Source: a virus. From it: a DNA stretch of 64,000 nt. This document shows positions 52,946 through 63,035 of the stretch, one piece after another (position 1 is the stretch's first letter; each line of letters opens with the position of its first letter). The notes under the pieces are model-generated. The model saw only the letters and a program-made list of their open reading frames with translations, was not told the DNA's origin and did no database searches. Where the stretch lies: IMG/VR virus record IMGVR_UViG_3300031994_000007. One strand, 5' to 3'. A program made the position numbers and the translations under genes.

Positions 52946-52977
52946 ACAGTCACCAAGAGGAAAAGAGGTAGACAGCA

Positions 52978-53382
52978 ATGACAATTAGATTCGCAACGAC
53001 TGCTGATGCTATCCGCATTATTAGGGCTATACAGAATAAACGCATGGACTACAATACGCCGCAAGATGTGCGGGAAGATGTGAACGCGGGGCGGCTGATT
53101 GTAGCAGAGGAAAACGGCAAGCTTTTAGGGTCTGTAGCTGTCGTGTATAAAGTCCATCGTGGTTATTATGCTATCATGAGAATGTGCGTGTATTCAAAAA
53201 CCAGCAAGGGCAAAGGGGTAGCAAGTGCGTTAATTGACTACGTGTTAGCTCTTGGCCTTGGCACTTATGGTGCAACGCCTTGGAATGACAATCCGGCCAT
53301 GATTCACATTTTTGTTAAAAGAGGTTTTGAGTACCAATACACATTCAAAAATAAATACGATTTTTATAAAAAAGGGGCTTGA
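52978..53382 (+). CDS. GNAT-family N-acetyltransferase-like protein (134 aa)
   Basis: 'LGSVAV...MRMCVYSKTSKGKGVASALIDYVL' resembles the acetyl-CoA-binding motif A. The TGA stop is the TTGACA -35 of the next promoter. Confidence 0.55.
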   Translation: MTIRFATTADAIRIIRAIQNKRMDYNTPQDVREDVNAGRLIVAEENGKLLGSVAVVYKVHRGYYAIMRMCVYSKTSKGKGVASALIDYVLALGLGTYGATPWNDNPAMIHIFVKRGFEYQYTFKNKYDFYKKGA

Positions 53383-53407
53383 CAAGTTCAAGCCCTTATG
53401 TTATAAT
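53379..53407 (+). promoter_or_regulatory. class B promoter (TTGACA embedded in GGGGCTTGA...TCAAGCCC hairpin)-17-TATAAT
   Basis: Sequence consensus. Confidence 0.6.
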
Positions 53408-53436
53408 ACAATCACAAAAGAAAAGGAGATAAAAAA

Positions 53437-53607
53437 ATGTTTAATGTTTACTACATCCGCAATGGGTATGAACTCAACGCTAAATTTGAAAAAAGAGGAA
53501 GTGCTCTTTTATTTGCTCATAATTTTGTATCTATGTTAGGCGGAGATTATGCCGCTGTTACTGATACAGAAACAAATAAAACTATACAAGTTTATAGCAG
53601 ATACTAA
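53437..53607 (+). CDS. hypothetical early protein (56 aa)
   Basis: RBS AAAGGAGATAAAAAA-ATG. Terminator AGGCTGA-TTCAGCCT+T6 at 53608-53640. Confidence 0.6.
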   Translation: MFNVYYIRNGYELNAKFEKRGSALLFAHNFVSMLGGDYAAVTDTETNKTIQVYSRY

Positions 53608-53659
53608 AAAAGGCTGATTCAGCCTTTTTTATTTACATTAAAAAAAATGAAAAAAGTGC

Positions 53660-53688
53660 TTGACAAATCGCCCGGGCAATGTTATAAT
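53660..53688 (+). promoter_or_regulatory. class A promoter driving structured RNA copy 3
   Basis: TTGACA-aatcGCCCGGGCaatgt-TATAAT. Confidence 0.6.
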
Positions 53689-53694
53689 ACAATC

Positions 53695-53745
53695 ACAGGC
53701 TGAGGGAAGCCCCACGCGGGGAGACGAGGGGAGAGACTGACTTAA
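53695..53745 (+). ncRNA. repeated structured RNA element, copy 3
   Basis: ACAGGCTGAGGGAAGCCCCACGCGGGGAGACGAGGGGAGAGACTGACTT (compensatory changes relative to copies 1/2). Confidence 0.45.
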
Positions 53746-53795
53746 AAGTAACAAATTGATGACAAAAAAATTTTTAAAAAAAATGAAAAAAGTGC

Positions 53796-53824
53796 TTGAC
53801 AATTTGCCCGGGCTGTGCTATACT
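53796..53824 (+). promoter_or_regulatory. class A promoter TTGACA-17-TATACT
   Basis: Sequence consensus. Confidence 0.55.
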
Positions 53825-53876
53825 ATAATCAGAAAGAGGGAAGGAAAACCCAAATAAACCGGAAAGGAAGAAAAAG

Positions 53877-53984
53877 ATGGAATTTTACAGTATGGAACAG
53901 TTCGAGATTCTGGGCGACCTGATGGAAGACTATCAGGAGTGGCTGGACTTTGAAGAGGACATGAAAACTAATCCTTGGGGCTGA
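53877..53984 (+). CDS. very acidic micro-protein (35 aa)
   Basis: MEFYSMEQFEILGDLMEDYQEWLDFEEDMKTNPWG. RBS GGAAAGGAAG. Stop within hairpin CCTTGGGGCTGAAAAAAGCCCCAAGG. Confidence 0.5.
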   Translation: MEFYSMEQFEILGDLMEDYQEWLDFEEDMKTNPWG

Positions 53985-54014
53985 AAAAAGCCCCAAGGAA
54001 ATTAAAAAAAGTAC

Positions 54015-54043
54015 TTGACAAGTAAGACAAAGTATGTTATAAT
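54015..54043 (+). promoter_or_regulatory. promoter TTGACA-17-TATAAT
   Basis: Sequence consensus. Confidence 0.6.
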
Positions 54044-54075
54044 ACAACCAGAAAGAAAGAAAAGGAGATAAAAAA

Positions 54076-54246
54076 ATGTACATCGTAACTGCTTACAAGA
54101 TTTGGGAAGAGTTTGAAGACTACAACAAAGCCGAACTGTACTTCGCCGCTTTGAAACATGGTGGGTACAAGTATGTGGAACTGAAAAAGAAAACCACGAC
54201 CGACAAATACGAATACTTTGAAAGTATCAAAATCTTTGTAAAATAA
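54076..54246 (+). CDS. hypothetical early protein (56 aa)
   Basis: RBS AAAGGAGATAAAAAA-ATG. TAA stop. Confidence 0.6.
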   Translation: MYIVTAYKIWEEFEDYNKAELYFAALKHGGYKYVELKKKTTTDKYEYFESIKIFVK

Positions 54247-54259
54247 TTAAAAAAGGGGC

Positions 54260-54289
54260 TTGACAAATCAAGCCCCTATGTGATATAAT
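54260..54289 (+). promoter_or_regulatory. class B hairpin promoter
   Basis: GGGGCTTGACAAATCAAGCCCC...TATAAT. Confidence 0.55.
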
Positions 54290-54321
54290 AAAGGCACAAA
54301 AGAAAAAAGGAGATTAAAAAA

Positions 54322-54471
54322 ATGACTATTCGTGAATTTTATAATTGGGCTGTCGCTAATGATGTTGAGGATTTTTGGTTTGGTGAAATGTTCCCCAATG
54401 GGATTGAAGTCTTTGAAATTGAAGATTTCACAATCAATACTGATAATAATTTTGTTTCTATCAACAATTAA
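54322..54471 (+). CDS. hypothetical early protein (49 aa)
   Basis: RBS AAGGAGATTAAAAAA-ATG. Confidence 0.55.
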   Translation: MTIREFYNWAVANDVEDFWFGEMFPNGIEVFEIEDFTINTDNNFVSINN

Positions 54472-54492
54472 AAAAATAATTAAAAAAGGGGC

Positions 54493-54521
54493 TTGACAAG
54501 ACAAGCCCCTTGTGTTATAAT
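54493..54521 (+). promoter_or_regulatory. class B hairpin promoter
   Basis: GGGGCTTGACAAGACAAGCCCC-TTGTGT-TATAAT. Confidence 0.6.
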
Positions 54522-54553
54522 GTAATCACAAAAGAGAAAAGGAGATAAAAAAA

Positions 54554-54709
54554 ATGAAAATGATTCAGAACATCGAATGCGGTAACATCTTCCCCTATAC
54601 CCTTGAGGGATTGATCGAAATGAGAGAAGAAGCCCGTGAACTTTACGATATTGAAGATCCCACTAATGCGGTGAGCATTTCCGAATACTATCAAATTATC
54701 ACGCTGTAA
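54554..54709 (+). CDS. hypothetical early protein (51 aa)
   Basis: RBS AAAGGAGATAAAAAAA-ATG. Strong terminator TCACGCTGTAAAAAGCGTGA+T9 (54695-54730). Confidence 0.6.
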   Translation: MKMIQNIECGNIFPYTLEGLIEMREEARELYDIEDPTNAVSISEYYQIITL

Positions 54710-54738
54710 AAAGCGTGATTTTTTTTTTGAAAAAGTGC

Positions 54739-54767
54739 TTGACAAATCGCCCGGGCAATGCTATAAT
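54739..54767 (+). promoter_or_regulatory. class A promoter driving structured RNA copy 4
   Basis: TTGACA-aatcGCCCGGGCaatgc-TATAAT. Confidence 0.6.
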
Positions 54768-54773
54768 ACAATC

Positions 54774-54824
54774 ACAGGTTGAAGGAAACCGCACCGGGGC
54801 AGAGGAGGGGAGAGACTGACTTAA
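54774..54824 (+). ncRNA. repeated structured RNA element, copy 4
   Basis: ACAGGTTGAAGGAAACCGCACCGGGGCAGAGGAGGGGAGAGACTGACTT. Confidence 0.45.
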
Positions 54825-54863
54825 TAGTTACAAAAGAAAAACAAAAAATTTCTAAAAAAAACT

Positions 54864-54892
54864 CTTGACATTTGCCCGGTCTTGTGATATTA
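54864..54892 (+). promoter_or_regulatory. class A-like promoter TTGACA-17-TATTAT
   Basis: Spacer tttGCCCGGtCttgtga (one mismatch to the box). Confidence 0.55.
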
Positions 54893-54945
54893 TAATACCA
54901 GAAAGAGGGAAGGAAAACCCAATAAACCAGAAGGGAAAAGAAAAG

Positions 54946-55377
54946 ATGAAAGAACTATACAGAGTGGAGCACATGACCAGAAGTGACTATGATGAATACA
55001 TGTGCGGGGGCTATAACTATAGGGTGCAGAAAATAAATGTGCTCGCGGAAAACCTGCAGGACGCCGCCCAAATCGTTAAAGAAATGTTCCCGTCTCATGT
55101 AATTAATGATGGTTATGTCAAAACTGTCGCTGAACTTGAGGCAGAACAAGCGGCAAAGGAAGCAGAATGGGAAGCCGAAAAAAGGAAAAAAGCAGAGCAG
55201 AAAGCCAAAAAAGAAGCTTTTGAAAAAGCCCATCCTGAGATTGTGGCAGAGCGCAAAAGAAAAGCAAAAATTACCAGAGCAAAAACAACAATTAAAGGAC
55301 TTGAAAAGCAGATTGCAGAAGCTGAAAAGAATCTTGCATACTGGAAAGCAAAACTTGAAGAACTTGAAAAGGGCTGA
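54946..55377 (+). CDS. hypothetical early protein with Lys/Glu-rich coiled-coil C-terminus (143 aa)
   Basis: RBS-proximal ATG in frame with track ORF 54865..55377. Terminator AAAAGGGCT-GAAAAA-AGCCCTTTT+T. Confidence 0.6.
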   Translation: MKELYRVEHMTRSDYDEYMCGGYNYRVQKINVLAENLQDAAQIVKEMFPSHVINDGYVKTVAELEAEQAAKEAEWEAEKRKKAEQKAKKEAFEKAHPEIVAERKRKAKITRAKTTIKGLEKQIAEAEKNLAYWKAKLEELEKG

Positions 55378-55407
55378 AAAAAGCCCTTTTCTTTTTTTAG
55401 AAAAGTG

Positions 55408-55436
55408 CTTGACAAATCCCCCAACCTATGATACAA
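55408..55436 (+). promoter_or_regulatory. promoter TTGACA-17-TACAAT driving structured RNA copy 5
   Basis: Sequence consensus. Confidence 0.55.
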
Positions 55437-55442
55437 TACAAT

Positions 55443-55492
55443 CACAGGCGGAGGGACGCCCCACGCGGGGAGCCGAGGGGGAAGACTGACTT
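55443..55492 (+). ncRNA. repeated structured RNA element, copy 5
   Basis: ACAGGCGGAGGGACGCCCCACGCGGGGAGCCGAGGGGGAAGACTGACTT. Confidence 0.45.
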
Positions 55493-55533
55493 TAGGTTAC
55501 AAAATGGTAACAAAAAATTTCTAAAAAAAGTAG

Positions 55534-55562
55534 TTGACAAATGCCCGGGCTTGTGATATTAT
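55534..55562 (+). promoter_or_regulatory. class A promoter TTGACA-aatGCCCGGGCttgtga-TATTAT
   Basis: Preceded by a GTTAC-N6-GTAAC inverted repeat (55506-55521). Confidence 0.6.
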
Positions 55563-55597
55563 AATACCAGAAAAAGAAAAGAAAGGAAGTAAATACA

Positions 55598-55771
55598 ATG
55601 TATAGAATCAAAATCGAAAGCGAACATGCCCCCAATACTTACAAATGGTATAATAACCCTCAGCAAGCGCATCTTGTAGCCTATACCATTATTAAGAATA
55701 AGGACGCAAATATTGTAACAGTGGAAAACCTTAAAGAAAAAAAGATTGAAAAAATTTATAAAAGGGCTTGA
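55598..55771 (+). CDS. hypothetical early protein (57 aa)
   Basis: RBS GAAAGGAAG. TGA stop formed by the -35 TTGACA of the next promoter. Confidence 0.55.
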   Translation: MYRIKIESEHAPNTYKWYNNPQQAHLVAYTIIKNKDANIVTVENLKEKKIEKIYKRA

Positions 55772-55796
55772 CAAATAGCCCGGCCTATGGTATAAT
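55768..55796 (+). promoter_or_regulatory. class B-like promoter (GGGCTTGACAAATAGCCC)-TATAAT
   Basis: Sequence consensus. Confidence 0.55.
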
Positions 55797-55830
55797 AAAG
55801 GCACAAAGAAAGAAAAGGAGATAAAAGAAA

Positions 55831-55989
55831 ATGAACGTTAACGAAATCAAAGAAAGAATTGAAAAACTTGAACGCTGGTGCTGGTTTGAGCAGATGGCAG
55901 ATTTTATGAACTGGACAGCCTACAACAAAGCACAGGCTGAAATCAAAGAGTTGAAAAAAAAGTTAGCAGAAATTGAAAAAGGGGCTTGA
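55831..55989 (+). CDS. hypothetical early protein (52 aa)
   Basis: RBS AAAGGAGATAAAAGAAA-ATG. C-terminal KGA-TGA inside the next -35. Confidence 0.55.
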   Translation: MNVNEIKERIEKLERWCWFEQMADFMNWTAYNKAQAEIKELKKKLAEIEKGA

Positions 55990-56014
55990 CAAAACAAGCC
56001 CCAGATGGTATAAT
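55986..56014 (+). promoter_or_regulatory. class B hairpin promoter
   Basis: GGGGCTTGACAAAACAAGCCCC...TATAAT. Confidence 0.6.
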
Positions 56015-56048
56015 AAATACAGAAAGAAAGAAAAGGAGAATTAAAAAA

Positions 56049-56333
56049 ATGAGTTATTTTATGGGAAATGGTCGTGCCGATACTTGCCGCCACAACGATG
56101 AAGTTTATAAAGGCAAGGCGGTTGAGATGATGATTGATGTGCTGGAAACCCGCGACGGCTTTGAGCTTCGCAAGGCAAGCGACAGCACTGGAGCGGCGGC
56201 AAAGTTCCGCATCTTTTGGGACGGTGAGTGCATCAGCACCGTCTATAATGAAAAGGAAGCACGGGCACTGTTTAACGACTTCGCCCCAGCGCCCCAGCGG
56301 AAGGCGGGACGCCCTAAGAAGAATGCGGCATAA
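56049..56333 (+). CDS. hypothetical early protein (94 aa), basic C-terminus
   Basis: RBS AAAGGAGAATTAAAAAA-ATG. TAA stop. Confidence 0.6.
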   Translation: MSYFMGNGRADTCRHNDEVYKGKAVEMMIDVLETRDGFELRKASDSTGAAAKFRIFWDGECISTVYNEKEARALFNDFAPAPQRKAGRPKKNAA

Positions 56334-56379
56334 AAAGCCGCTTCTTCATCGCCCGGGCAAAGATTACAAAAGAAAAACA

Positions 56380-56408
56380 TTGACAAATAGCCAAAAGCAT
56401 GTTATAAT
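56380..56408 (+). promoter_or_regulatory. promoter TTGACA-17-TATAAT
   Basis: Preceded by tcGCCCGGGCaaag just after the upstream stop. Confidence 0.6.
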
Positions 56409-56440
56409 GTAATCACAAAAGAGAAAAGGAGATAAAGAAA

Positions 56441-56617
56441 ATGACTTACGAAGAAATGTACGACTTGCTGGCCAATACCCTTGGGATCGATGAGAATGCC
56501 CTTGATTTGGCTTTTGCTGTTGGTGGATGCAATGAAGAAACTGCTGAAAGAATTTTATTCTATTACACTGGCTGGCATTCCTTTGAGGGCTGGTTGGGTG
56601 AGCAGGAAGAGGGCTGA
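56441..56617 (+). CDS. acidic hypothetical early protein (58 aa)
   Basis: RBS AAAGGAGATAAAGAAA-ATG. Terminator GAGGGCT-GAAAAA-AGCCCTC+TTTTG. Confidence 0.6.
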   Translation: MTYEEMYDLLANTLGIDENALDLAFAVGGCNEETAERILFYYTGWHSFEGWLGEQEEG

Positions 56618-56662
56618 AAAAGCCCTCTTTTGCCCGGGCGGAAAAGTTACAAAAAAAAGTCA

Positions 56663-56691
56663 TTGACAAACCAAAAGATGTATGGTATTAT
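56663..56691 (+). promoter_or_regulatory. promoter TTGACA-17-TATTAT
   Basis: Sequence consensus. Confidence 0.55.
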
Positions 56692-56721
56692 AATACCAGA
56701 AAGAGAAAAGGAGATAAAAAA

Positions 56722-56895
56722 ATGAAAGTCAAAGATTTAATGAACATTCTCAGCAAGTATGACATGGACGACGATGTAAGGGTTATTAGTTATGATGATA
56801 ACGCAATAATTCAAATTGGTAATTACAGACCCTCTGCTGGCCCCTATGGTGACAAGTATCCTTTCTTTATTCCGTATGGTGAAATTACTACTTGA
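56722..56895 (+). CDS. hypothetical early protein (57 aa)
   Basis: RBS AAAGGAGATAAAAAA-ATG. TGA stop. Confidence 0.6.
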   Translation: MKVKDLMNILSKYDMDDDVRVISYDDNAIIQIGNYRPSAGPYGDKYPFFIPYGEITT

Positions 56896-56913
56896 AAAAA
56901 ATAAAAAAGGGGC

Positions 56914-56942
56914 TTGACAAAACAAGCCCCGCATGATATAAT
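56914..56942 (+). promoter_or_regulatory. class B hairpin promoter
   Basis: GGGGCTTGACAAAACAAGCCCC...TATAAT. Confidence 0.6.
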
Positions 56943-56974
56943 ACAATCACAAAGAAAGAAAAGGAGAAATAAAA

Positions 56975-57100
56975 ATGATTACTTGCGCTGAATGTCTGTG
57001 CCATAATGAGTGCCCGCTGTATCGTGGTGAAGATACCGACCCCTGTTGGTATGAAAAAATCAGAAAAGAAAAGGAGAACAAAGAAAATGAAAAAGTTTGA
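56975..57100 (+). CDS. Cys-rich micro-protein (41 aa; putative zinc-binding)
   Basis: MITCAECLCHNECPLYRGEDTDPCWYEK... RBS AAAGGAGAAATAAAA-ATG. Confidence 0.5.
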   Translation: MITCAECLCHNECPLYRGEDTDPCWYEKIRKEKENKENEKV

Positions 57101-57224
57101 AGCTAAGATTACCCGCGACAATGCCGAAATCAAGTGCATTGTGGAAGCTATTGACAAAGACCACGCCGCCCGCCGCTTCTTTGAGATTCTGGGAGAGCAC
57201 GGCCTGAAAATCAAGGAACTGTAA
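57087..57224 (+). CDS. hypothetical early protein (45 aa), overlaps previous ORF by 14 nt
   Basis: RBS AAAAGGAGAAC inside the upstream ORF. In frame with track ORF 57006..57224. Terminator GGAACTGTAAAAAGTTCC. Confidence 0.5.
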   Translation: MKKFEAKITRDNAEIKCIVEAIDKDHAARRFFEILGEHGLKIKEL

Positions 57225-57292
57225 AAAGTTCCTTGACTTTTGCCCGGGCGATTTACCTCAAAAATTTTAAGTAAAAAAATTAAAAAAGAGGC

Positions 57293-57321
57293 TTGACAAA
57301 TGCCCGGGCTTATGTTATTAT
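57293..57321 (+). promoter_or_regulatory. class A promoter TTGACA-aatGCCCGGGCttatgt-TATTAT
   Basis: Sequence consensus. Confidence 0.6.
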
Positions 57322-57352
57322 AATACCAGAAAGAACAAAGGAGATAAAAAAA

Positions 57353-57562
57353 ATGAACATGAATGAGAAAATCAAAGAACTGGAAGCCAAAGGGTACAAC
57401 AAGCATGACACCTATGAAGTGGATGAAGCCGCGAATGGTGGATGGGTTATTACAGTTTATACCAGTCTGTGGGGTTTTGAAGAGTATTTGTATGATACAG
57501 ACGGAAATCCCATTGAAGCAACAGAAATCAATCTGTATGGCAAGCCCCAAAAAATTTATTAA
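57353..57562 (+). CDS. hypothetical early protein (69 aa)
   Basis: RBS AAAGGAGATAAAAAAA-ATG. In frame with track ORF 57293..57562. Confidence 0.6.
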   Translation: MNMNEKIKELEAKGYNKHDTYEVDEAANGGWVITVYTSLWGFEEYLYDTDGNPIEATEINLYGKPQKIY

Positions 57563-57570
57563 ATTGGGGC

Positions 57571-57599
57571 TTGACAAATAAAACAAAGCATGTTATAAT
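57571..57599 (+). promoter_or_regulatory. promoter TTGACA-17-TATAAT
   Basis: Sequence consensus. Confidence 0.6.
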
Positions 57600-57633
57600 A
57601 AATACAGAAAGAAAGAAAAGGAGAAATAAAAAA

Positions 57634-57852: not shown

Positions 57853-57914
57853 GCGGTAATTTTTTACTGCCGAAAATACTTCAAAAATTTTAAGTAAAAA
57901 CCGCAAAAAACCTA

Positions 57915-57943
57915 TTGACAAATCGCCCGGGCAATGCTATACT
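57915..57943 (+). promoter_or_regulatory. class A promoter driving structured RNA copy 6
   Basis: TTGACA-aatcGCCCGGGCaatgc-TATACT. Confidence 0.55.
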
Positions 57944-57949
57944 ATAATC

Positions 57950-58000
57950 ACAGGTTGAGGGAAACCGCACTCGGGCAGAAGAGGGGAAAGACTGACTTTA
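57950..58000 (+). ncRNA. repeated structured RNA element, copy 6
   Basis: ACAGGTTGAGGGAAACCGCACTCGGGCAGAAGAGGGGAAAGACTGACTT, followed by a GTTAC-N6-GTAAC inverted repeat. Confidence 0.45.
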
Positions 58001-58049
58001 AGTTACAAAATAGTAACAATAATTTTTTTAGAAAAAATAAAAAAAAGGC

Positions 58050-58078
58050 TTGACAAGCCCGGGCATGTATGCTATAAT
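58050..58078 (+). promoter_or_regulatory. class A promoter TTGACA-aGCCCGGGCatgtatgc-TATAAT
   Basis: Sequence consensus. Confidence 0.6.
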
Positions 58079-58114
58079 GTAATCACAAAGAGGGAAGGAA
58101 AAGGAGATAAAAAA

Positions 58115-58336
58115 ATGGAAAAGAAATTTATTTATGATGTAGCAGGCAACCTTTATGAAGATACCGAAGCCTTTGGCAAGGCTTGGAAGGCCGCAAAGGA
58201 AAAGGCCACAACTCTCCACTGTGCGATTTATCGCACTGTCTGCAAGGGAGAGACAGAACGCCGGGAGGTGTTCTTCAAGGGCAGGTGCTTCAACAATGTA
58301 AAATACGCCACTTCTGACAACGTGATGATTTTCTAA
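58115..58336 (+). CDS. hypothetical early protein (73 aa)
   Basis: RBS AAAAGGAGATAAAAAA-ATG. Terminator CTAAGGGATT-A6-AATCCCTTAG. Confidence 0.65.
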   Translation: MEKKFIYDVAGNLYEDTEAFGKAWKAAKEKATTLHCAIYRTVCKGETERREVFFKGRCFNNVKYATSDNVMIF

Positions 58337-58374
58337 GGGATTAAAAAAATCCCTTAGAAAATTAAAAAAAATGC

Positions 58375-58403
58375 TTGACATGTAAAACAAAGTATGCTAT
58401 AAT
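58375..58403 (+). promoter_or_regulatory. promoter TTGACA-17-TATAAT
   Basis: Sequence consensus. Confidence 0.6.
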
Positions 58404-58436
58404 ACAGACAGAAAGAAAGAAAAGGAGAATAAAACA

Positions 58437-58760
58437 ATGAAAGTTAAAATGAATCAGCTAACCTATCACGCAAAAGAAGAAAGACGCGATAGACGCGAAA
58501 TCGTCAAACAAGTTGGAATTGGTAAACCAATAGCACAGGTTAAAAAATTCAATGACAATGGTAGAGAAAAAATTGAAATGCTCACAGATACAGGGCTGGT
58601 TATTATAATGGGTGATGATAATAAAATCATAACTCTTTACCTTGCGAGTACCGCAAAAGCGGCAGCCATTTATAAATCAGCACACGGCGCAAATGCAAAA
58701 ATGCCTGCACAAATCTTTGAACAAATCAAAATAAATCGTATCATGTTCCCCGCTGATTAA
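58437..58760 (+). CDS. hypothetical early protein (107 aa)
   Basis: RBS AAAAGGAGAATAAAACA-ATG. Terminator TCCCCGCT-GATTAA-AGCGGGGA. Confidence 0.65.
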   Translation: MKVKMNQLTYHAKEERRDRREIVKQVGIGKPIAQVKKFNDNGREKIEMLTDTGLVIIMGDDNKIITLYLASTAKAAAIYKSAHGANAKMPAQIFEQIKINRIMFPAD

Positions 58761-58769
58761 AGCGGGGAC

Positions 58770-58798
58770 TTGATTTTTATAAAAAAAAATGATATAAT
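58770..58798 (+). promoter_or_regulatory. promoter TTGATT-17-TATAAT
   Basis: Overlaps the upstream terminator tail. Confidence 0.45.
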
Positions 58799-58834
58799 AA
58801 ATTATAAAATAAAATAAAGGAGGCCGAAAAAGTT

Positions 58835-58951
58835 ATGGACTTAATGCTTGCCCGGGCACTTTTAGCAATCGCAAAGTATTGCGCTTCTTGTGATGATTGT
58901 GATAAATGTGCTTTACATGAATTCTGCGGGAAAATACCATTAGAGTGGTAA
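58835..58951 (+). CDS. Cys-rich micro-protein (38 aa, C-x2-C-x2-C-x2-C...C)
   Basis: MDLMLARALLAIAKYCASCDDCDKCALHEFCGKIPLEW. RBS AAAGGAGG. Followed by two GC hairpins (58960-59060). Confidence 0.45.
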   Translation: MDLMLARALLAIAKYCASCDDCDKCALHEFCGKIPLEW

Positions 58952-59067
58952 TTAACGCGGCGACCGCACCCAATCGGGGCGGTTCGAACTTTCGCACGGT
59001 AAAGCGTTGAAGAATTTTTCGGCCATTAAGTCGGGCAAAACTTTTAATGTTTTTTGCCCGAAACCTA

Positions 59068-59096
59068 TTGACAAATAAATACTCTTGTGTTATACT
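59068..59096 (+). promoter_or_regulatory. promoter TTGACA-17-TATACT
   Basis: Sequence consensus. Confidence 0.55.
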
Positions 59097-59145
59097 ATAA
59101 TTGTTCCAAGAGAGAACAACAAAAACAAAAAAGGAGAATACAACA

Positions 59146-59328
59146 ATGTATAATGTGCGGTTTACTGACACCATCCATGGTGAGATGGAAGAGAACTTTG
59201 ATAGCTATGATGCGGCTATGGAGTATTGGAATAGCTATGCTGATACCGAGTCTTGTGTGGCTGGTGTCATGATGGATTTGGATAATTGCGAAATTATCTG
59301 GAATTTTGACGACAGGGAGGCAGAATAA
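59146..59328 (+). CDS. acidic hypothetical early protein (60 aa)
   Basis: RBS AAAAGGAGAATACAACA-ATG. In frame with track ORF 59101..59328. Confidence 0.55.
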   Translation: MYNVRFTDTIHGEMEENFDSYDAAMEYWNSYADTESCVAGVMMDLDNCEIIWNFDDREAE

Positions 59329-59589
59329 ATGAAAAAGATTCTTGCTTTTGTCCTTGTTTTTGTTCTTATCCTATCGTTGGGCATAAGCGCTTATGCTTAT
59401 AATAAATCTATCTTTGATTTGAAATACCATTTCAATTATGCTTATGTAGATTTGTTAAATGGTACGACAGTTGAGGGTAAAGTCCAGAGTTGGAAAGACT
59501 GGGAAGATTCAGACATGTTGCAAGTCACTTTTGAGGATGGAGCTACTTATTATTCCCATTCTTCTAACATTATGCTTGTTTCAAAATAA
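59329..59589 (+). CDS. secreted/membrane-anchored small protein (86 aa) with N-terminal signal/TM segment
   Basis: MKKILAFVLVFVLILSLGISAYA... Start immediately follows the upstream TAA. RBS GGGAGG. Confidence 0.6.
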   Translation: MKKILAFVLVFVLILSLGISAYAYNKSIFDLKYHFNYAYVDLLNGTTVEGKVQSWKDWEDSDMLQVTFEDGATYYSHSSNIMLVSK

Positions 59590-59603
59590 TAATAAAAAAG
59601 GGC

Positions 59604-59632
59604 TTGACAAACAAGCCCTTTTGTGCTATTAT
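59604..59632 (+). promoter_or_regulatory. class B hairpin promoter
   Basis: AAGGGCTTGACAAACAAGCCCTT...TATTAT. Confidence 0.6.
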
Positions 59633-59662
59633 AATACCAGAAAAGGAAAGGGAAATAAAAAA

Positions 59663-59842
59663 ATGACTACTTACAGAGAACGCCTGCTTGACCGCATGAT
59701 TGCCCTTTATGGGCTTGAAAATCCAATTGTTATCGAGTTTGCCAATATGTGCGAAAAATATGGGGATAATTCTTGGAATGATGATTTTCTGCGGCTCTTG
59801 GTAGAAGCCCATGAAGCAGACCCAGTTTTTAAGGAAGATTAA
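59663..59842 (+). CDS. hypothetical early protein (59 aa)
   Basis: RBS AAAGGGAAATAAAAAA-ATG. Terminator GGAAGATT-AAAA-ATCTTCC. Confidence 0.55.
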   Translation: MTTYRERLLDRMIALYGLENPIVIEFANMCEKYGDNSWNDDFLRLLVEAHEADPVFKED

Positions 59843-59888
59843 AAATCTTCCTTAATCGCCCGGGCAGAAAAGTGACAAAAGAAAGACA

Positions 59889-59917
59889 TTGACAAACTAT
59901 AAATAATGTGTTATAAT
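59889..59917 (+). promoter_or_regulatory. promoter TTGACA-17-TATAAT
   Basis: Preceded by aatcGCCCGGGCagaaaag. Confidence 0.6.
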
Positions 59918-59948
59918 AAAGGCACAAAAAGAAAAGGAGAATAAAACA

Positions 59949-60386
59949 ATGAATAAAGTTTTCAACAAAATAAAGACATGGGCTGAACCTGTGAGCGATT
60001 GGTGGTTTTTTAATTGGGAAGCTGTTGTAGTTATAATTTTTATAGCGGCTGTGCTTATTGGGCTTGTGGTACTCGCTTTATGGGCTTCTGGTGCTTTTTA
60101 TGATGAAGTCGAAAATTATGACTTCACAGCGCAGGTGTATGATAAAGACCACTATACCACTCAATCAGTAAGTTATATTACTTCTGGTAAAACTCGCATT
60201 CCTGTATACCATACTCATCATCACTACAAAGTAATGTGGGAAGATGGTGGAGAACGTGGTACATTTGAAATTGGTGAAGACCATTATGATTTAATTAAAA
60301 TCGGGGACTTTATCAATGTTCATTGCTCTGTGAGGGCAGACAAGCAGGGTGAACTTCATTATTATTATAGTTTCAAGGGATATTAA
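59949..60386 (+). CDS. membrane protein (145 aa) with one TM helix and His-rich segment
   Basis: TM 'AVVVIIFIAAVLIGLVVLALWA'. RBS AAAAGGAGAATAAAACA-ATG. Terminator CAAGGGAT-ATTAAA-ATCCCTTG. Confidence 0.65.
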   Translation: MNKVFNKIKTWAEPVSDWWFFNWEAVVVIIFIAAVLIGLVVLALWASGAFYDEVENYDFTAQVYDKDHYTTQSVSYITSGKTRIPVYHTHHHYKVMWEDGGERGTFEIGEDHYDLIKIGDFINVHCSVRADKQGELHYYYSFKGY

Positions 60387-60415
60387 AATCCCTTGAAATT
60401 TTTTTCAAAAAGTGC

Positions 60416-60444
60416 TTGACAAGTCCAAAAGAGTATGTTATAAT
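60416..60444 (+). promoter_or_regulatory. promoter TTGACA-17-TATAAT
   Basis: Sequence consensus. Confidence 0.6.
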
Positions 60445-60477
60445 GAAGGCACAAAGAAAGAAAAGGAGAATAAAAAA

Positions 60478-60939
60478 ATGAATAACGAAGTAATTAAGGC
60501 AATGAATAAACAGCCCCGTAAAAAAAGCAATTTTCAAAAGTGGTGGGAACAAAACGATTATAAAGTTTGGCGTGTCGTGCTGTTCCCCATTTGGATTTAT
60601 GTGTGGAGCAGAGAAAAAATTAAAACTTATCTTAATTCCCGTACAGTATGGAATGAAAACAGAGCGAATGAAATACTTAGTTATTACATTCCCCGCTGTG
60701 CTCGTTGGAATAATGAAAATAAAACCTTTTATTATTTTAATAATGGGTATGGATGGGAAATGGGCTTTGCTAAAAAGTATTTGAAAATTAAAGACCGTAG
60801 ATTTTGGAATCTTTATGCGTGTTGGCGTATTCGTGATTATCTTATCAAAAATTTTGAACTGGAAGGGTTCACCAAAGAAATTGGTAACTGCTACGATGGC
60901 TGGACTGAAATCACTTTCAGAATGAAAACAGAGGATTAA
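60478..60939 (+). CDS. Trp/aromatic-rich hypothetical early protein (153 aa)
   Basis: RBS AAAAGGAGAATAAAAAA-ATG. In frame with track ORF 60412..60939. Terminator ACAGAGGATT-A5-ATCCTCTGT+T7. Confidence 0.65.
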   Translation: MNNEVIKAMNKQPRKKSNFQKWWEQNDYKVWRVVLFPIWIYVWSREKIKTYLNSRTVWNENRANEILSYYIPRCARWNNENKTFYYFNNGYGWEMGFAKKYLKIKDRRFWNLYACWRIRDYLIKNFELEGFTKEIGNCYDGWTEITFRMKTED

Positions 60940-60968
60940 AAAATCCTCTGTTTTTTTCAAAAAAGGGC

Positions 60969-60997
60969 TTGACAAATCGCCCGGGCTATGTTATATT
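60969..60997 (+). promoter_or_regulatory. class A promoter driving structured RNA copy 7 (variant)
   Basis: TTGACA-aatcGCCCGGGCtatgt-TATATT. Confidence 0.55.
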
Positions 60998-61003
60998 ATA
61001 GTC

Positions 61004-61050
61004 ACAGGCGGAGGGACGCCACACTCGGGTAGTAGAGGGGGAGGCTTTTT
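61004..61050 (+). ncRNA. repeated structured RNA element, copy 7 (divergent 3' end with T-run)
   Basis: ACAGGCGGAGGGACGCCACACTCGGGTAGTAGAGGGGGAGGCTTTTTTT. Confidence 0.4.
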
Positions 61051-61119
61051 TTATTTGGAGAATGTGGGGGAGGTTGCCCGGGCGGCGGCAAAAGAAAAAC
61101 AAAAAATTACAAAAAAAGA

Positions 61120-61148
61120 CATTGACAAATAACCAGAAGTATGCTATT
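61120..61148 (+). promoter_or_regulatory. promoter TTGACA-17-TATTAT
   Basis: Preceded by gttGCCCGGGCggcggc. Confidence 0.55.
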
Positions 61149-61184
61149 ATAATACCAGAAAGAGAGATAAAGGAGGACAAAAAA

Positions 61185-61373
61185 ATGTATTTCGTTCTTG
61201 ATATTGTCAGTAATAAAACGGTCGCAATGACCGCTTTTAGAGACGCGGCGGAAATTATCGCCGCAAACTTCCCCGCAAAGTGCGTAGTTCGCTACGCCGC
61301 TGAAATAGTTAGCGGGTATTCTAAAGACAGCCTGTTCTTTGAGAATGAGCAGGAAATGAAAAAAGGGGCTTGA
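61185..61373 (+). CDS. hypothetical early protein (62 aa)
   Basis: RBS AAAGGAGGACAAAAAA-ATG. KKGA-TGA stop inside the next -35. Confidence 0.55.
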   Translation: MYFVLDIVSNKTVAMTAFRDAAEIIAANFPAKCVVRYAAEIVSGYSKDSLFFENEQEMKKGA

Positions 61374-61398
61374 CAAAATAGCCCCTTTATGATACAAT
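61370..61398 (+). promoter_or_regulatory. class B-like promoter TTGACA-17-TACAAT
   Basis: GGGGCTTGACAAAATAGCCCC. Confidence 0.55.
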
Positions 61399-61428
61399 AC
61401 CAATAGAAACAGAAAAGGAGAAATACAA

Positions 61429-61548
61429 ATGATGTATGACATTTATCCCTGCGATCTTGACCCATTCGGGGAGTGCCCGAAGCATTGTCAGGATTGCGCC
61501 CATTGCGTGGGCTGGTTCATGGATGAACCAGAGGACGAAGAAAATTAA
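61429..61548 (+). CDS. Cys-rich micro-protein (39 aa; putative zinc-binding)
   Basis: MMYDIYPCDLDPFGECPKHCQDCAHCVGWFMDEPEDEEN. RBS AAAAGGAGAAATACAA-ATG. Confidence 0.5.
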   Translation: MMYDIYPCDLDPFGECPKHCQDCAHCVGWFMDEPEDEEN

Positions 61549-61557
61549 AAAAGGGGC

Positions 61558-61586
61558 TTGACAAATACAACCCCCTGTGCTATAAT
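61558..61586 (+). promoter_or_regulatory. class B-like promoter TTGACA-17-TATAAT
   Basis: GGGGCTTGACAAATACAACCCCC. Confidence 0.55.
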
Positions 61587-61613
61587 AAAGACACAATAAA
61601 GGAGATGAAAACA

Positions 61614-61667
61614 ATGAAAGCACGACCGCCGCCCGCAAGGGCATGTGATTGGATTACTAATAATTAG
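61614..61667 (+). CDS. 17-aa micro-ORF (MKARPPPARACDWITNN) terminated by TAG
   Basis: RBS AAAGGAGATGAAAACA-ATG. The only TAG-terminated ORF in the early array. If TAG is read through it extends 9 codons to a TAA overlapping the next micro-ORF ATG (TAATG). Confidence 0.35.
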   Translation: MKARPPPARACDWITNN

Positions 61668-61687
61668 ATAGTAATGTATAGGAGAAT

Positions 61688-61827
61688 AAACTAATGAATA
61701 GAATTAGAGATGAGACGAAAACCTTTTAAGGTTTTCTAATAGATAGTATAGAATAGAAAGATAATAGAAAATGAGGAAAAACTAATGAATAGAATTAGAG
61801 ATGAGACTAAAACCTTTTAAGGTTTTT
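61688..61827 (+). repeat. tandem duplicated micro-ORF units (2 x ~48 bp, ~92 bp apart), each RBS + MNRIRDETKTF + stop-overlapping hairpin
   Basis: Units at 61688-61735 and 61780-61827 differ by 1 nt. ORFs at 61694..61729 and 61785..61820. Hairpin AAAACCTTTTAAGGTTTT. The surrounding 230 nt is unusually dense in TAG triplets. Confidence 0.5.
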
Positions 61828-61942
61828 GATGAATAGAATAGAATGATAGTAATAAAATAGAATAGAAGTAAGTGCCAAGGGGCGGCTCGGTTGGAGGATG
61901 GAAGTAGCCGAAAAAATTTTTCAAAAAATTTTGAAAAACCCC

Positions 61943-61971
61943 TTGACAAATGCCCGGGCATTTGTTATAAT
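61943..61971 (+). promoter_or_regulatory. class A promoter TTGACA-aatGCCCGGGCatttgt-TATAAT
   Basis: Sequence consensus. Confidence 0.6.
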
Positions 61972-62005
61972 ACAATCACAAAGAGAAAACAAGGAGAAAA
62001 AGAAA

Positions 62006-62119
62006 ATGATGACTAACGATTATTGGGAAGCTCACGAAGCCGAATGGCTTGCCGCTCAGGAGTGCATGGAGTGGCTCCTGTTTGAGGCCGACATGGCCAC
62101 TGACCCCTACCGGGATTAA
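62006..62119 (+). CDS. acidic micro-protein (37 aa)
   Basis: MMTNDYWEAHEAEWLAAQECMEWLLFEADMATDPYRD. RBS AAGGAGAAAAAGAAA-ATG. Hairpin CCCTACCGGG-attaaaa-CCCGGTAGGG overlaps the stop. Confidence 0.5.
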   Translation: MMTNDYWEAHEAEWLAAQECMEWLLFEADMATDPYRD

Positions 62120-62140
62120 AACCCGGTAGGGAGAAAATAC

Positions 62141-62169
62141 TTGACAAGTCCAAAAGTGTATGATATAAT
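62141..62169 (+). promoter_or_regulatory. promoter TTGACA-17-TATAAT
   Basis: Sequence consensus. Confidence 0.6.
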
Positions 62170-62198
62170 TAAGGCACAAAAACAAAGGAGATAAAAAA

Positions 62199-62516
62199 AT
62201 GAGAACTTGTAAAAACTGCGGTTGTTATCTTCCAGATAATTGGACTACTTGCCCCGCATGTTTTATGGATGAAAAGCAAGTTGAACATAAAACAGAAAAA
62301 CAGATTGATTCACACAAAGAGTCTTTTCTTAATAACATTTGCCGCGTTGATACATTCCATAAAAACAATACTAAAACATCAAATGTTTTTGCCTCTTATG
62401 AATACGCTATTAGATTTGCTCATTATATAGCTTGCGAATCTGACATAGCAATGGTTATTGTAACTGACATTCCCAGTGGGAAAATAATTGAAAAACTTTC
62501 TCGTAAAGGGTATTGA
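62199..62516 (+). CDS. zinc-ribbon protein (105 aa; C-x2-C-x10-C-x2-C N-terminus)
   Basis: MRTCKNCGCYLPDNWTTCPACF... RBS AAAGGAGATAAAAAA-ATG. TGA stop inside the next -35 (tatTGAcaa). Confidence 0.6.
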   Translation: MRTCKNCGCYLPDNWTTCPACFMDEKQVEHKTEKQIDSHKESFLNNICRVDTFHKNNTKTSNVFASYEYAIRFAHYIACESDIAMVIVTDIPSGKIIEKLSRKGY

Positions 62517-62541
62517 CAAATCCAAAAGCGTATGGTATAAT
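62513..62541 (+). promoter_or_regulatory. promoter TTGACA-17-TATAAT
   Basis: Sequence consensus. Confidence 0.6.
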
Positions 62542-62572
62542 TAAGGCACAAAAGGAAAAGGAGATAAGAAAA

Positions 62573-63003: not shown

Positions 63004-63035
63004 CATAGACAGAAAGGGACAAGGAGGATAAAAAA

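What the first reader, a model, noticed from the sequence alone, without database searches (positions are those of the whole stretch)
53379..62520. Bifunctional hairpin/-35 elements: stop codon and C-terminal residues encoded inside the next gene's promoter
In class B promoters the -35 TTGACA lies in the 5' arm and loop of a GGGGCTTGACAA..CAAGCCCC hairpin that directly follows an ORF. At least six ORFs (ending at 53382, 55771, 55989, 56895, 61373, 62516) terminate with TGA supplied by the TTGACA hexamer, typically after a ...KGA tail encoded by the hairpin arm. This couples an RNA 3' hairpin, the stop codon and the downstream promoter into about 30 bp, an unusually compressed arrangement.
Basis: seen in the sequence. 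Interest (0 to 1): 0.6.

Follow-up and report, generated by a model that had tools for sequence, protein, structure and literature searches.

The report
Terminator hairpins wrapped around next promoter
In the early-gene array of this phage, many tiny genes end in an RNA hairpin whose loop is the -35 box of the next gene's promoter, and some borrow that box's TGA as their stop codon; this is a real, conserved, extremely compact version of the promoter-terminator cassettes already described in T4-like phages.

Summary
The window is a phage. Its minus-strand late genes (1-49760) read open only if TAG is recoded. Its plus-strand early array (about 49800-64000) holds some 40 near-consensus TTGACA-N17-TATAAT promoters. 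Five of the six listed ORF ends (53382, 55771, 55989, 61373, 62516) do stop on the TGA inside TTGACA. ORF end 56895 does not, and 62516 has no hairpin. Seven promoters carry a stable hairpin (-14 to -18 kcal/mol) bridging the -35.

The arrangement recurs in about 20 related promoter arrays, including cultured Enterococcus phage H1:
- The hairpin arms covary (56 arm pairs among 77).
- A stop at +1 of the -35 is the commonest stop position (17 of 121 junctions).
- Hairpins bridging the -35 and a gene's own terminator are mutually exclusive (p = 7e-9).
- Orthologues switch between the two solutions.

Best reading: the hairpin is the upstream gene's terminator or 3' hairpin, squeezed into the next promoter. 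Use of the TGA follows from reading frame, since only that frame stops at once. The closest known system is the PeSL cassette of T4-like phages, so this is a new variant of a known kind. Termination itself is untested.

The parts
52978..53382 (+). GNAT-like acetyltransferase gene ending ...YKKGA, with its TGA stop at bases 2-4 of the -35 at 53379
   Evidence: ORF and RBS. PHROG acetyltransferase match reaches residue 131 of 134. The L088 orthologue is 77% identical and ends ...YKKVA-TGA.
53375..53407 (+). Hairpin/promoter element: hairpin 53375-53395 (GGGCTTGA/TCAAGCCC), -35 at 53379-53384, -10 at 53402-53407
   Evidence: RNA fold -17.7 kcal/mol, z -5.9.
54254..54289 (+). Hairpin/promoter element: hairpin 54254-54277, -35 at 54260, 18-bp spacer, -10 at 54284. 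The upstream gene 54076-54246 stops at a TAA 7 nt before the hairpin.
   Evidence: Fold -18.0 kcal/mol, z -5.1.
54486..54521 (+). Hairpin/promoter element: hairpin 54486-54511, -35 at 54493. The upstream gene 54322-54471 stops at a TAA 14 nt before the hairpin.
   Evidence: Fold -17.7 kcal/mol, z -4.3.
55598..55796 (+). Gene 55598-55771 (...YKRA) with its TGA in the -35 at 55768. Weak 5-bp hairpin at 55764-55781 (GGGCT/AGCCC). -10 at 55791.
   Evidence: The fold is weak: -9.9 kcal/mol, z -0.8.
55831..56014 (+). Gene 55831-55989 (...EKGA) with its TGA in the -35 at 55986. Hairpin 55981-56002 (GGGGCTTG/CAAGCCCC). -10 at 56009.
   Evidence: Fold -15.6 kcal/mol, z -3.8.
56909..56942 (+). Hairpin/promoter element: hairpin 56909-56930, -35 at 56914.
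   Evidence: Fold -15.5 kcal/mol, z -5.4.
57541..57599 (+). Reversed variant. The 5' arm CAAGCCCC (57541-57548) lies in the last codons of gene 57353-57562, the TAA stop is in the loop, and the 3' arm GGGGCTTG (57566-57573) supplies the TTG of the -35 at 57571.
   Evidence: Fold -17.8 kcal/mol, z -2.8. Identical in L088.
59596..59632 (+). Hairpin/promoter element: hairpin 59596-59622 (AAAAGGGCTTG/CAAGCCCTTTT), -35 at 59604. The upstream gene 59329-59589 stops at a TAA 6 nt before the hairpin. This copy has the best + strand T-run of the set.
   Evidence: Fold -16.0 kcal/mol, z -4.6. Conserved in L088.
61185..61398 (+). Gene 61185-61373 (...MKKGA) with its TGA in the -35 at 61370. Hairpin 61362-61388 (AAAGGGGCT/AGCCCCTTT). 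-10 at 61393.
   Evidence: Fold -14.3 kcal/mol, z -4.7.
61552..61586 (+). Weak hairpin/promoter element (GGGG...CCCC) with -35 at 61558. The upstream gene 61429-61548 stops at the TAA that opens the A-tract.
   Evidence: Fold -9.5 kcal/mol, z -1.5.
62199..62541 (+). Gene 62199-62516 (...RKGY) with its TGA in the -35 at 62513. No hairpin. -10 at 62536.
   Evidence: Fold -3.4 kcal/mol, z +0.5.
60478..60997 (+). Contrast case. Gene 60478-60939 has its TAA in the loop of its own terminator (about 60924-60955, followed by a T-run), then a promoter at 60969 without a strong bridging hairpin (only a short GGGC/GCCC pairing). Its orthologues in three relatives end in the -35 instead.

Best explanation
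These are composite terminator-promoter cassettes in the early, host-RNA-polymerase-dependent gene array of a large phage that infects Bacillota and recodes TAG.

As DNA, each cassette is a near-consensus sigmaA/sigma70 promoter: an A-rich UP-like tract, TTGACA, a 17-bp spacer with a TG extension, and TATAAT. It is followed by a conserved leader, a strong ribosome-binding site and a small gene.

As RNA, the G-rich bases just upstream of the -35 pair with a C-rich stretch in the promoter spacer. This RNA can only be made by polymerases arriving from the upstream gene. The -35 hexamer becomes the loop, or the loop plus the inner stem, of a GC-rich hairpin. That hairpin is the intrinsic terminator and/or the 3'-end-protecting hairpin of the upstream mRNA. 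The U-rich remainder of the spacer and the -10 serve as an imperfect U-tract.

This is the extreme end of a rule that holds across the whole array: the last codons form the 5' arm of the terminator and the stop codon lies in its loop. When the coding sequence runs right up to the promoter, only one of the three frames stops at once, namely the TGA in TTGACA. Surviving genes therefore end there, with 2-3 C-terminal residues ((K)GA or RA) dictated by the A-tract and the hairpin arm.

Such overlap is workable because in Bacillota the polymerase outruns the ribosome, so a ribosome at the stop codon does not block hairpin formation during transcription (inferred from PMC12207403).

Shown here: the sequence anatomy, covariation, distribution and orthologue swaps. 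Inferred: termination or stabilisation activity, and promoter activity.
For: 1. Promoters. About 40 promoters match 11-12 of 12 consensus positions with a TG extension, all on the + strand.
2. Hairpin stability. Seven hairpins fold at -14.3 to -18.0 kcal/mol with z -3.8 to -5.9. Hairpin-less promoters fold at -2.5 to -4.4.
3. Real pairing. A helix bridging the -35 is found in 27.8% of 277 promoters, against 8.7 +/- 1.4% when the partners are permuted. There are 56 distinct arm pairs among 77 hairpins, for example GAGGG/CCCTC, TTGGGG/CCCCAA, GGTCTTG/CAAGACC and ATAGAGGGCTTG/CAAGCCCTCTAT.
4. Substitution for a terminator. Of 117 gene-to-promoter junctions, 46 have only the gene's own hairpin, 41 only a bridging hairpin, 6 both and 24 neither. 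Fisher p = 7e-9.
5. Orthologue swap. One 153-156 aa gene ends ...ERA-TGA in the -35 with the hairpin GAAAGGGC/GCCCTTTC in L033, L052 and L067. In the window it carries a 30-nt insert holding its own terminator, followed by a promoter without a strong bridging hairpin.
6. Stop position. d = +1 is the commonest stop position, 17 of 121 junctions in 9 arrays. 17 of the 21 ORFs that reach the -35 use that frame (p = 1e-5). The other frames would add a median 44-51 nt.
7. Strand. Internal G.T against A.C is 10 to 2 (p = 0.04). The T-run after the GC core is enriched relative to hairpin-less promoters, at least 4 of 7 T in 38% against 13%.
8. Independent annotation. In cultured Enterococcus phage H1 the deposited CDS H1_82, H1_90, H1_92, H1_96 and H1_98 end exactly on the TGA of a TTGACA.
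9. Host type. The closest terminase relatives infect Enterococcus, Geobacillus, Alicyclobacillus and Bacillus.
Against: - No transcript 3' ends or promoter activities were measured.
- In the window most copies lack a canonical U-tract on the + strand. The tails are TTATGTT, TTGTGTT, AGATGGT and GCATGAT.
- The simple scanner calls the hairpins terminators on the minus strand only.
- The G.T/A.C asymmetry rests on 12 positions.
- Mutual exclusion with a gene's own terminator is partly geometric, because short intergenic gaps leave no room for a second hairpin.
- The relatives were fetched with a pattern that contains GGGGCTTGACAA, so one element per locus is ascertained. The 3' arm and all other promoters in each locus are not.
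- The -35 stop at 62516 has no hairpin, so a hairpin is not obligatory.
Confidence: 0.7

Rival explanations
1. The hairpins work mainly on the other strand, or on both. Read on the minus strand each is a textbook intrinsic terminator, a GC hairpin followed by TTTTTT. It would stop antisense transcription from crossing the early array and running into the minus-strand late genes. This is not exclusive with the best explanation.
For: - The scan calls 53395, 54277, 54511, 55781, 56002, 56930 and 59622 minus-strand terminators.
- The A-run 5' of the GC core is stronger than the T-run 3' of it: at least 5 of 7 A in 68% of hairpins against at least 5 of 7 T in 18%. The A-run is also somewhat enriched over hairpin-less promoters, 68% against 43%.
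- In phage H1 the early array is followed by a long convergent minus-strand block.
Against: - The A-tract is present upstream of nearly all promoters, with or without a hairpin, as expected of an UP element.
- No strong minus-strand promoter lies in or beside the array within the window.
- G.T exceeds A.C by 10 to 2, which favours + strand RNA.
- Presence of the hairpin tracks whether the upstream + strand gene has its own terminator. A purely antisense role does not predict that.
Confidence: 0.15
2. The inverted repeat acts as DNA. It could be a recombination hot spot within repeated about 90-bp cassettes that shuffle small genes, as proposed for PeSLs. Alternatively it could be a binding site or cruciform that regulates the promoter. 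On this view the RNA hairpin is incidental.
For: - The cassettes are repeated about 40 times at 80-90% identity.
- The window and its close relative L088 differ by a 1.9-kb, six-gene indel and two gene replacements. Homology breaks fall in promoter/leader cassettes.
- PeSL crossovers were mapped in or next to the stem-loop (PMC2839356).
Against: - Arm sequences, arm lengths (4-15 bp) and loop lengths (4-10 nt) vary freely while pairing is kept. That argues against a sequence-specific protein site.
- Homologous recombination needs the repeat, not the hairpin. Hairpin-less promoters in the same array are equally repeated.
- The G.T/A.C asymmetry and the T-run enrichment are not expected for a DNA-only role.
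Confidence: 0.1
3. Coincidence or mis-called genes. On this view G-rich flanks and C-rich spacers pair by chance, and the ORFs really end elsewhere.
For: The ORFs are short, and most have no database homologues. One of the six claimed ends was indeed mis-assigned.
Against: - The permutation control gives 8.7% against 27.8% observed.
- There are compensatory arm changes.
- The frame test gives p = 1e-5.
- The acetyltransferase domain runs to within 3 residues of the TGA.
- Orthologue C-termini are conserved.
- The deposited annotation of phage H1 gives the same ends.
Confidence: 0.03

Closest known systems
PeSL (promoter-early stem-loop) cassettes of T4-type phages (Arbiol et al. 2010, PMC2839356; Comeau et al. 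2014, PMC4122927)
   Same: - Conserved cassettes of about 100 bp between small early ORFans: an AT-rich tract, a strong sigma70-like promoter, a polyG/polyC stem-loop, then a Shine-Dalgarno sequence and ATG.
- The stem-loop is described as the terminator or attenuator for upstream transcription.
- The described subclasses include stem-loops between the -35 and -10 or overlapping the -35.
- Cassettes flank the indels and replacements that distinguish close relatives.
   Different: - Unrelated phage lineage: T4-like myoviruses of Gram-negative hosts, against a TAG-recoding lineage whose terminase is nearest to Enterococcus and Geobacillus phages.
[quoted passage not shown]
- Here the -35 is the hairpin loop, the last codons form the 5' arm, and the stop is often the TGA of the -35 itself.
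- PeSL promoter and terminator activities and mini-circles were shown experimentally. Nothing has been tested here.
Host-takeover module of Bacillus phage SPO1 (terminal redundancy)
   Same: A dense run of small early genes served by strong host-sigma promoters and strong ribosome-binding sites, in a Bacillota phage that encodes its own sigma factor(s) for later genes. This comparison rests on my own knowledge of the literature; the window's sigma factor is.
   Different: A strict scan of SPO1 bases 1-16000 found only 2 matching promoters and no hairpin bridging a -35. Its genes are grouped in operons rather than one promoter per gene.
Intrinsic terminators that overlap or abut stop codons in Bacillota, where transcription and translation are uncoupled
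   Same: The distance from stop codon to terminator is short. This is tolerated because the ribosome does not trail the polymerase closely (PMC12207403, section on localization of termination sites).
   Different: Here the overlap is systematic, with the stop codon inside the loop for most genes of the array, and it extends into the next promoter.
Bidirectional intrinsic terminators (A-tract, hairpin, T-tract)
   Same: A GC hairpin flanked by an upstream A-run and a downstream T-rich stretch. The minus-strand reading is canonical.
   Different: The A-run doubles as the promoter's UP-like tract and occurs without hairpins too. The element sits between co-directional genes rather than convergent ones.

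Membership tests
PeSL-type composite promoter-terminator cassette | Intergenic cassette made of an AT-rich tract, a sigma70-like -35/-10, a stem-loop, and a Shine-Dalgarno sequence with start codon | tested here: met
   Example: TAAAAAAGGGGC TTGACA AAACAAGCCCCGCATGA TATAAT ...AAAGGAGA...ATG.
PeSL-type composite promoter-terminator cassette | Stem-loop rich in polyG followed by polyC, placed within or next to the promoter (subclasses overlap the -35) | tested here: met
   GGGG(C)/(G)CCCC cores bridge the -35 in 77 of 277 promoters. The arms covary.
PeSL-type composite promoter-terminator cassette | Many copies clustered in a hyperplastic region of small ORFans | tested here: met
   About 40 promoters in 13 kb, before genes of 35-153 aa. 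Most have no PHROG match or homologue in the fetched loci.
PeSL-type composite promoter-terminator cassette | Indels and replacements between close relatives begin and end in the cassettes | tested here: inconclusive
   The window and L088 differ by a 1.9-kb six-gene indel (54078-55969) and replacements at 56762-56904 and 57637-58359, with homology breaks in promoter/leader DNA. Only one pair was compared, and the breakpoints cannot be resolved to the base.
PeSL-type composite promoter-terminator cassette | Measured promoter and terminator activity; excised mini-circles | not testable with these tools
   Needs reporter assays and inverse PCR, as in PMC2839356.
PeSL-type composite promoter-terminator cassette | Carried by T4-type myoviruses (the lineage in which the family was defined) | tested here: not met
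   The terminase is closest to Enterococcus H1/VRE9_4/EF1, Geobacillus E3 and Phass-1. I therefore treat this as an analogue and a new variant, not a member by descent.
Canonical intrinsic (Rho-independent) terminator, + strand | GC-rich stem of at least 5 pairs with a 3-8 nt loop | tested here: met
   Stems of 8-11 pairs with 5-6 G-C and loops of 4-6 nt (9 at 61370).
Canonical intrinsic (Rho-independent) terminator, + strand | U-tract (at least 5 T in 8) directly after the stem on the transcribed strand | tested here: not met
   No class B hairpin in the window passes on the + strand, while seven of the nine pass on the minus strand. Across the family the T-run is enriched but imperfect, at least 4 of 7 T in 38%. 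Some relatives are canonical, for example H1 AAAAGGGG-TTGACAA-CCCCTTTTTT.
SigmaA/sigma70 promoter | TTGACA, 17 +/- 1 bp spacer, TATAAT, TG extension, A-rich upstream tract | tested here: met
   25 perfect 12-of-12 sites and 15 sites at 11 of 12 on the + strand. Nearly all have TG at -15/-14.

The most novel reading that the evidence does not exclude
Placing the release site of one transcription unit inside the recognition site of the next could be functional rather than merely compact.

Polymerase hand-off. A polymerase that terminates at the hairpin is released a few bases from the -10 of the next promoter. It could re-initiate there without leaving the DNA. The array would then act as a relay that sustains very high early expression from few polymerases.

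Translation-gated read-through. A ribosome pausing on the TGA in the hairpin loop would melt the terminator. Read-through into the next gene would then depend on translation of the previous one.

None of my evidence excludes either reading, and none tests it.
Probability: 0.1. Interest if true: 0.7.

Novelty: new variant of a known kind. Interest (0 to 1): 0.42.

Why it matters
Three signals on two kinds of molecule are written into the same roughly 45 bp: a translational stop, an RNA 3' hairpin and a promoter.

- **Annotation.** It gives a concrete rule for calling the ends of tiny early genes in a widespread, mostly uncultured group of gut phages. Automated callers, and the code-15 problem, make these genes hard to call.
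- **Reach of the PeSL idea.** It extends promoter-terminator cassettes from T4-like phages of Gram-negative hosts to an unrelated lineage infecting Bacillota. That suggests convergent evolution of cassette-based early-gene arrays.
- **Testability.** Cultured Enterococcus phages (H1, VRE9_4, EF1/EF5) carry the same arrangement, so the inferred termination and any polymerase hand-off can be tested directly.
- **Synthetic biology.** The element is a ready-made insulating promoter of minimal length.

Tried and rejected
- Megablast of the early region and of 20 kb of the late region against GenBank phages gave no hit. Relatives were reached instead through a motif scan of IMG/VR and a terminase tblastn.
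- Rfam at gathering threshold, and at E up to 1 on the early region, found no family for the hairpins or for the repeated non-coding element. The four weak hits look like chance. No tRNA was found.
- My first T-tail test, counting T after the full helix, showed no enrichment (1.78 against 2.01). The reason is that the helix itself swallows the T-run by pairing it with the A-tract. I repeated the test from the G-C core outward.
- A fixed protein operator was rejected, because arm sequence, arm length and loop length all vary while pairing is kept.
- A link between -35 TGA stops and stop-codon recoding was rejected. The recoded codon is TAG, and TGA and TAA are the working stops in the early genes.
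- The SPO1 terminal redundancy was checked as a possible known example. No -35-bridging hairpins were found.
- The first 50 kb of Phass-1 holds only four strict promoter matches and no array; I did not fetch the rest of that genome.
- tblastn of ten early proteins against the fetched loci found few homologues, so C-terminal conservation could be checked for only two gene families.
- I did not use the large protein-database, structure-prediction or metagenome searches. They would not have changed the verdict.

Full report
**What the window is**

Bases 1-49760 have 26-33% G+C and hold almost no long ORFs under the standard code. If TAG is read as sense, the minus strand opens into a continuous block of large genes: 3129, 2721 and 1613 aa with 84, 75 and 34 in-frame TAGs and no TGA. 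These genes include a terminase large subunit, a portal protein, virion proteins and a phage sigma factor. From about 49800 to 64000 the coding strand flips to +, G+C rises to 37-42% and the standard code applies. The early genes there stop only with TAA or TGA.

The terminase is closest to a human-faecal contig (60% aa). Next come Enterococcus phages VRE9_4, H1 and EF1/EF5 (48%), Geobacillus E3, an Alicyclobacillus phage and the code-15 gut phage Phass-1. So this is a large phage infecting Bacillota that recodes TAG. No close DNA relative exists in GenBank phages.

**The early array**

The + strand carries 25 perfect and 15 near-perfect TTGACA-N17-TATAAT promoters. Nearly all have a TG extension and an A-rich upstream tract. 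Each precedes either a small gene with a strong ribosome-binding site (35-153 aa) or a repeated non-coding element of about 55 nt.

**Checking the observation**

GGGGCTTGACA with at most 1 mismatch occurs 13 times against 0.27 expected.

Five of the six listed ORF ends are correct. These are 53382 (YKKGA), 55771 (YKRA), 55989 (EKGA), 61373 (MKKGA) and 62516 (RKGY). In each the TGA is bases 2-4 of the next -35. The sixth, 56895, is wrong. That gene has its own TGA, which starts 21 nt (ends 19 nt) upstream of the -35, and only an out-of-frame ORF ends in the -35.

RNA folding gives stable hairpins that enclose or include the -35 at seven promoters: 53379, 54260, 54493, 55986, 56914, 59604 and 61370. 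Their energies are -14.3 to -18.0 kcal/mol with z -3.8 to -5.9. The hairpins at 55768 and 61558 are weak, and 62513 has none. Three hairpin-less control promoters fold at -2.5 to -4.4 kcal/mol. A reversed variant sits at 57541-57573. There the 5' arm is in the last codons, the TAA is in the loop, and the 3' arm supplies the TTG of the -35.

**Relatives**

An IMG/VR scan for AAAAGGGGCTTGACAA returned 118 loci. About 20 of them carry dense promoter arrays of the same kind. Several share the window's late genes at 65-74% nucleotide identity, and L088 is a close relative of the early region.

In these arrays the -35 again sits in a hairpin, but the arms differ from copy to copy while staying complementary. 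Examples are GGGC/GCCC, GAGGG/CCCTC, TTGGGG/CCCCAA, GGTCTTG/CAAGACC, GAAAGGGC/GCCCTTTC and ATAGAGGGCTTG/CAAGCCCTCTAT. There are 56 arm pairs among 77 hairpins.

A permutation control re-pairs each 5' flank with another promoter's spacer. It lowers the share of promoters with a bridging helix of at least 4 G-C pairs from 27.8% to 8.7 +/- 1.4%. The pairing is therefore selected. Free variation in arm sequence, arm length and loop length argues against a fixed protein operator.

**Stop codons**

Across 121 gene-to-promoter junctions, the commonest stop position is +1 relative to the -35, meaning the TGA of TTGACA. It accounts for 17 cases in 9 arrays. Their tails are KGA, KRA, ERA, KEG, IGA, LGY, LDY, FEC and KGY, all dictated by the A-tract and the hairpin arm. 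The next peaks, at -11 to -13, are TAAs that open the A-tract.

Of the 21 ORFs that reach the -35, 17 are in the TGA frame (p = 1e-5). In the other two frames the next stop lies a median 44-51 nt further on, through the promoter and leader. Use of the TGA is therefore best explained by frame and survivorship, not by a special mechanism.

The deposited annotation of cultured Enterococcus phage H1 independently ends five genes (H1_82, 90, 92, 96 and 98) on the TGA of a TTGACA. Some of the hairpins there carry a canonical T-run, for example AAAAGGGG-TTGACAA-CCCCTTTTTT; others, such as GGTAAGGGG-TTGACAAA-CCCCTTACC, do not.

**What the hairpin is for**

The hairpin lies at about -45 to -18, upstream of the next gene's transcription start. 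As RNA it therefore exists only on transcripts coming from the upstream gene, or on antisense transcripts.

Most other early genes in the window end in a terminator of their own. Its 5' arm is the last codons and its loop holds the stop codon, as in GAAGAGTGG-TAAAAA-CCACTCTTC-TTTTTTT. The two kinds of hairpin are mutually exclusive: 46 junctions have only the gene's own hairpin, 41 only a bridging hairpin, 6 both and 24 neither (Fisher p = 7e-9).

One gene family shows the swap directly. In L033, L052 and L067 it ends ...ERA-TGA inside the -35 with a bridging hairpin. The window orthologue (60478-60939) has a 30-nt insert carrying its own terminator, followed by a promoter without a strong bridging hairpin. 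The acetyltransferase gene keeps its ...KK(G/V)A-TGA end in L088, where the following sequence is a canonical terminator rather than a promoter.

Two further observations point to the + strand. Internal wobble positions favour G.T over A.C by 10 to 2 (p = 0.04). The T-run after the G-C core is enriched relative to hairpin-less promoters, 38% against 13% with at least 4 of 7 T.

Together these results support the view that the bridging hairpin is the upstream gene's terminator or 3' hairpin, folded into the next promoter.

**Caveats**

- In the window the + strand U-tract is imperfect, and a simple scanner calls these hairpins terminators on the minus strand.
- The upstream A-run is stronger than the downstream T-run. 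However, the A-run is also present at promoters without hairpins, as expected of an UP element.
- A bidirectional or antisense-insulating role is therefore a live, non-exclusive rival.
- Nothing here measures termination, RNA stability or promoter strength.

**Comparison with what is known**

T4-type phages carry PeSL cassettes: an AT-rich tract, a strong sigma70-like promoter, a polyG/polyC stem-loop and a Shine-Dalgarno sequence. These are repeated between small ORFans in hyperplastic regions. Their terminator and promoter activities have been shown experimentally. Five subclasses are defined by stem-loop position, including overlap with the -35, and the cassettes have a role in modular shuffling (PMC2839356, PMC4122927).

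The present cassettes match that description feature by feature. The window and L088 also differ by a six-gene indel and two gene replacements whose homology breaks fall in cassettes.

The differences are:
- the phage lineage and host phylum;
- the -35 serving as the hairpin loop;
- the last codons serving as the 5' arm;
- the stop codon being taken from the -35.

In PeSLs the stop codons are described as lying in the upstream AT-rich region. SPO1's host-takeover region works similarly at the level of gene organisation but lacks such hairpins. Short stop-to-terminator distances are a known trait of Bacillota, linked to uncoupled transcription and translation (PMC12207403).

**Verdict**

This is a real, conserved and neatly compressed arrangement. 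It is a new variant of a known kind, not a new principle. Its mechanism is well supported by comparative evidence but has not been tested experimentally.

Noticed in passing
window 1-49760 (minus strand): The late-gene block reads open only if TAG is a sense codon. That gives ORFs of 3129, 2721 and 1613 aa with 84, 75 and 34 in-frame TAGs. The + strand early genes use only TAA and TGA as stops. No suppressor tRNA lies in the window.
   Followed up: partly
window 51690, 52218, 53694, 54773, 55443, 57949, 61003 (+ strand, about 55 nt each): Seven copies of a non-coding element, CACAGGYKGAGGGAMRCC-NCACNCGGGN-AG..GAGGGG..GACTGACTT. Each starts a few bases after its own consensus promoter. Three base pairs show compensatory changes. 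It matches no Rfam family. It is probably a small structured RNA made early in infection.
   Followed up: partly
window 51328-63493 (20 sites): The palindrome GCCCGGGC occurs 20 times against 0.08 expected, all within the early region. It sits either at a fixed place in the spacer of the hairpin-less 'class A' promoters or just after terminators. It may be an operator for a regulator of early transcription.
   Followed up: no
window 51397-63972, e.g. 51613-51636, 55366-55391, 57838-57860, 60369-60400: Most early genes have their stop codon inside the loop of their own terminator. The 5' arm is the last 5-9 nt of coding sequence and the loop is T(A/G)AAAAA. This is far tighter than the usual spacing between stop codon and terminator.
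   Followed up: partly
window 49804-50126 and 48702-49760: A perfect promoter drives an AbrB/MazE-like DNA-binding gene (49872-50126). It sits at the divergence point beside a phage sigma-factor gene on the other strand. Both are likely players in the early-to-late switch.
   Followed up: no
window 61600-61900: An ORF-poor, AT-rich stretch with a 54-nt direct repeat (61682-61735 and 61773-61826, 94% identical). Each copy contains a small hairpin, AAAACCTTTTAAGGTTTT.
   Followed up: no
window 52381-52782 and 63036-63443: Two paralogous genes resembling 5'(3')-deoxyribonucleotidases (MT.YYFDMDGVLADF...) lie in the same early array. Each sits behind a promoter that contains GCCCGGGC.
   Followed up: no
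window 50001-54000 against 1-50000: G+C rises sharply from about 27-33% in the late block to 37-42% in the early array, and GC and AT skews change sign.
   Followed up: no
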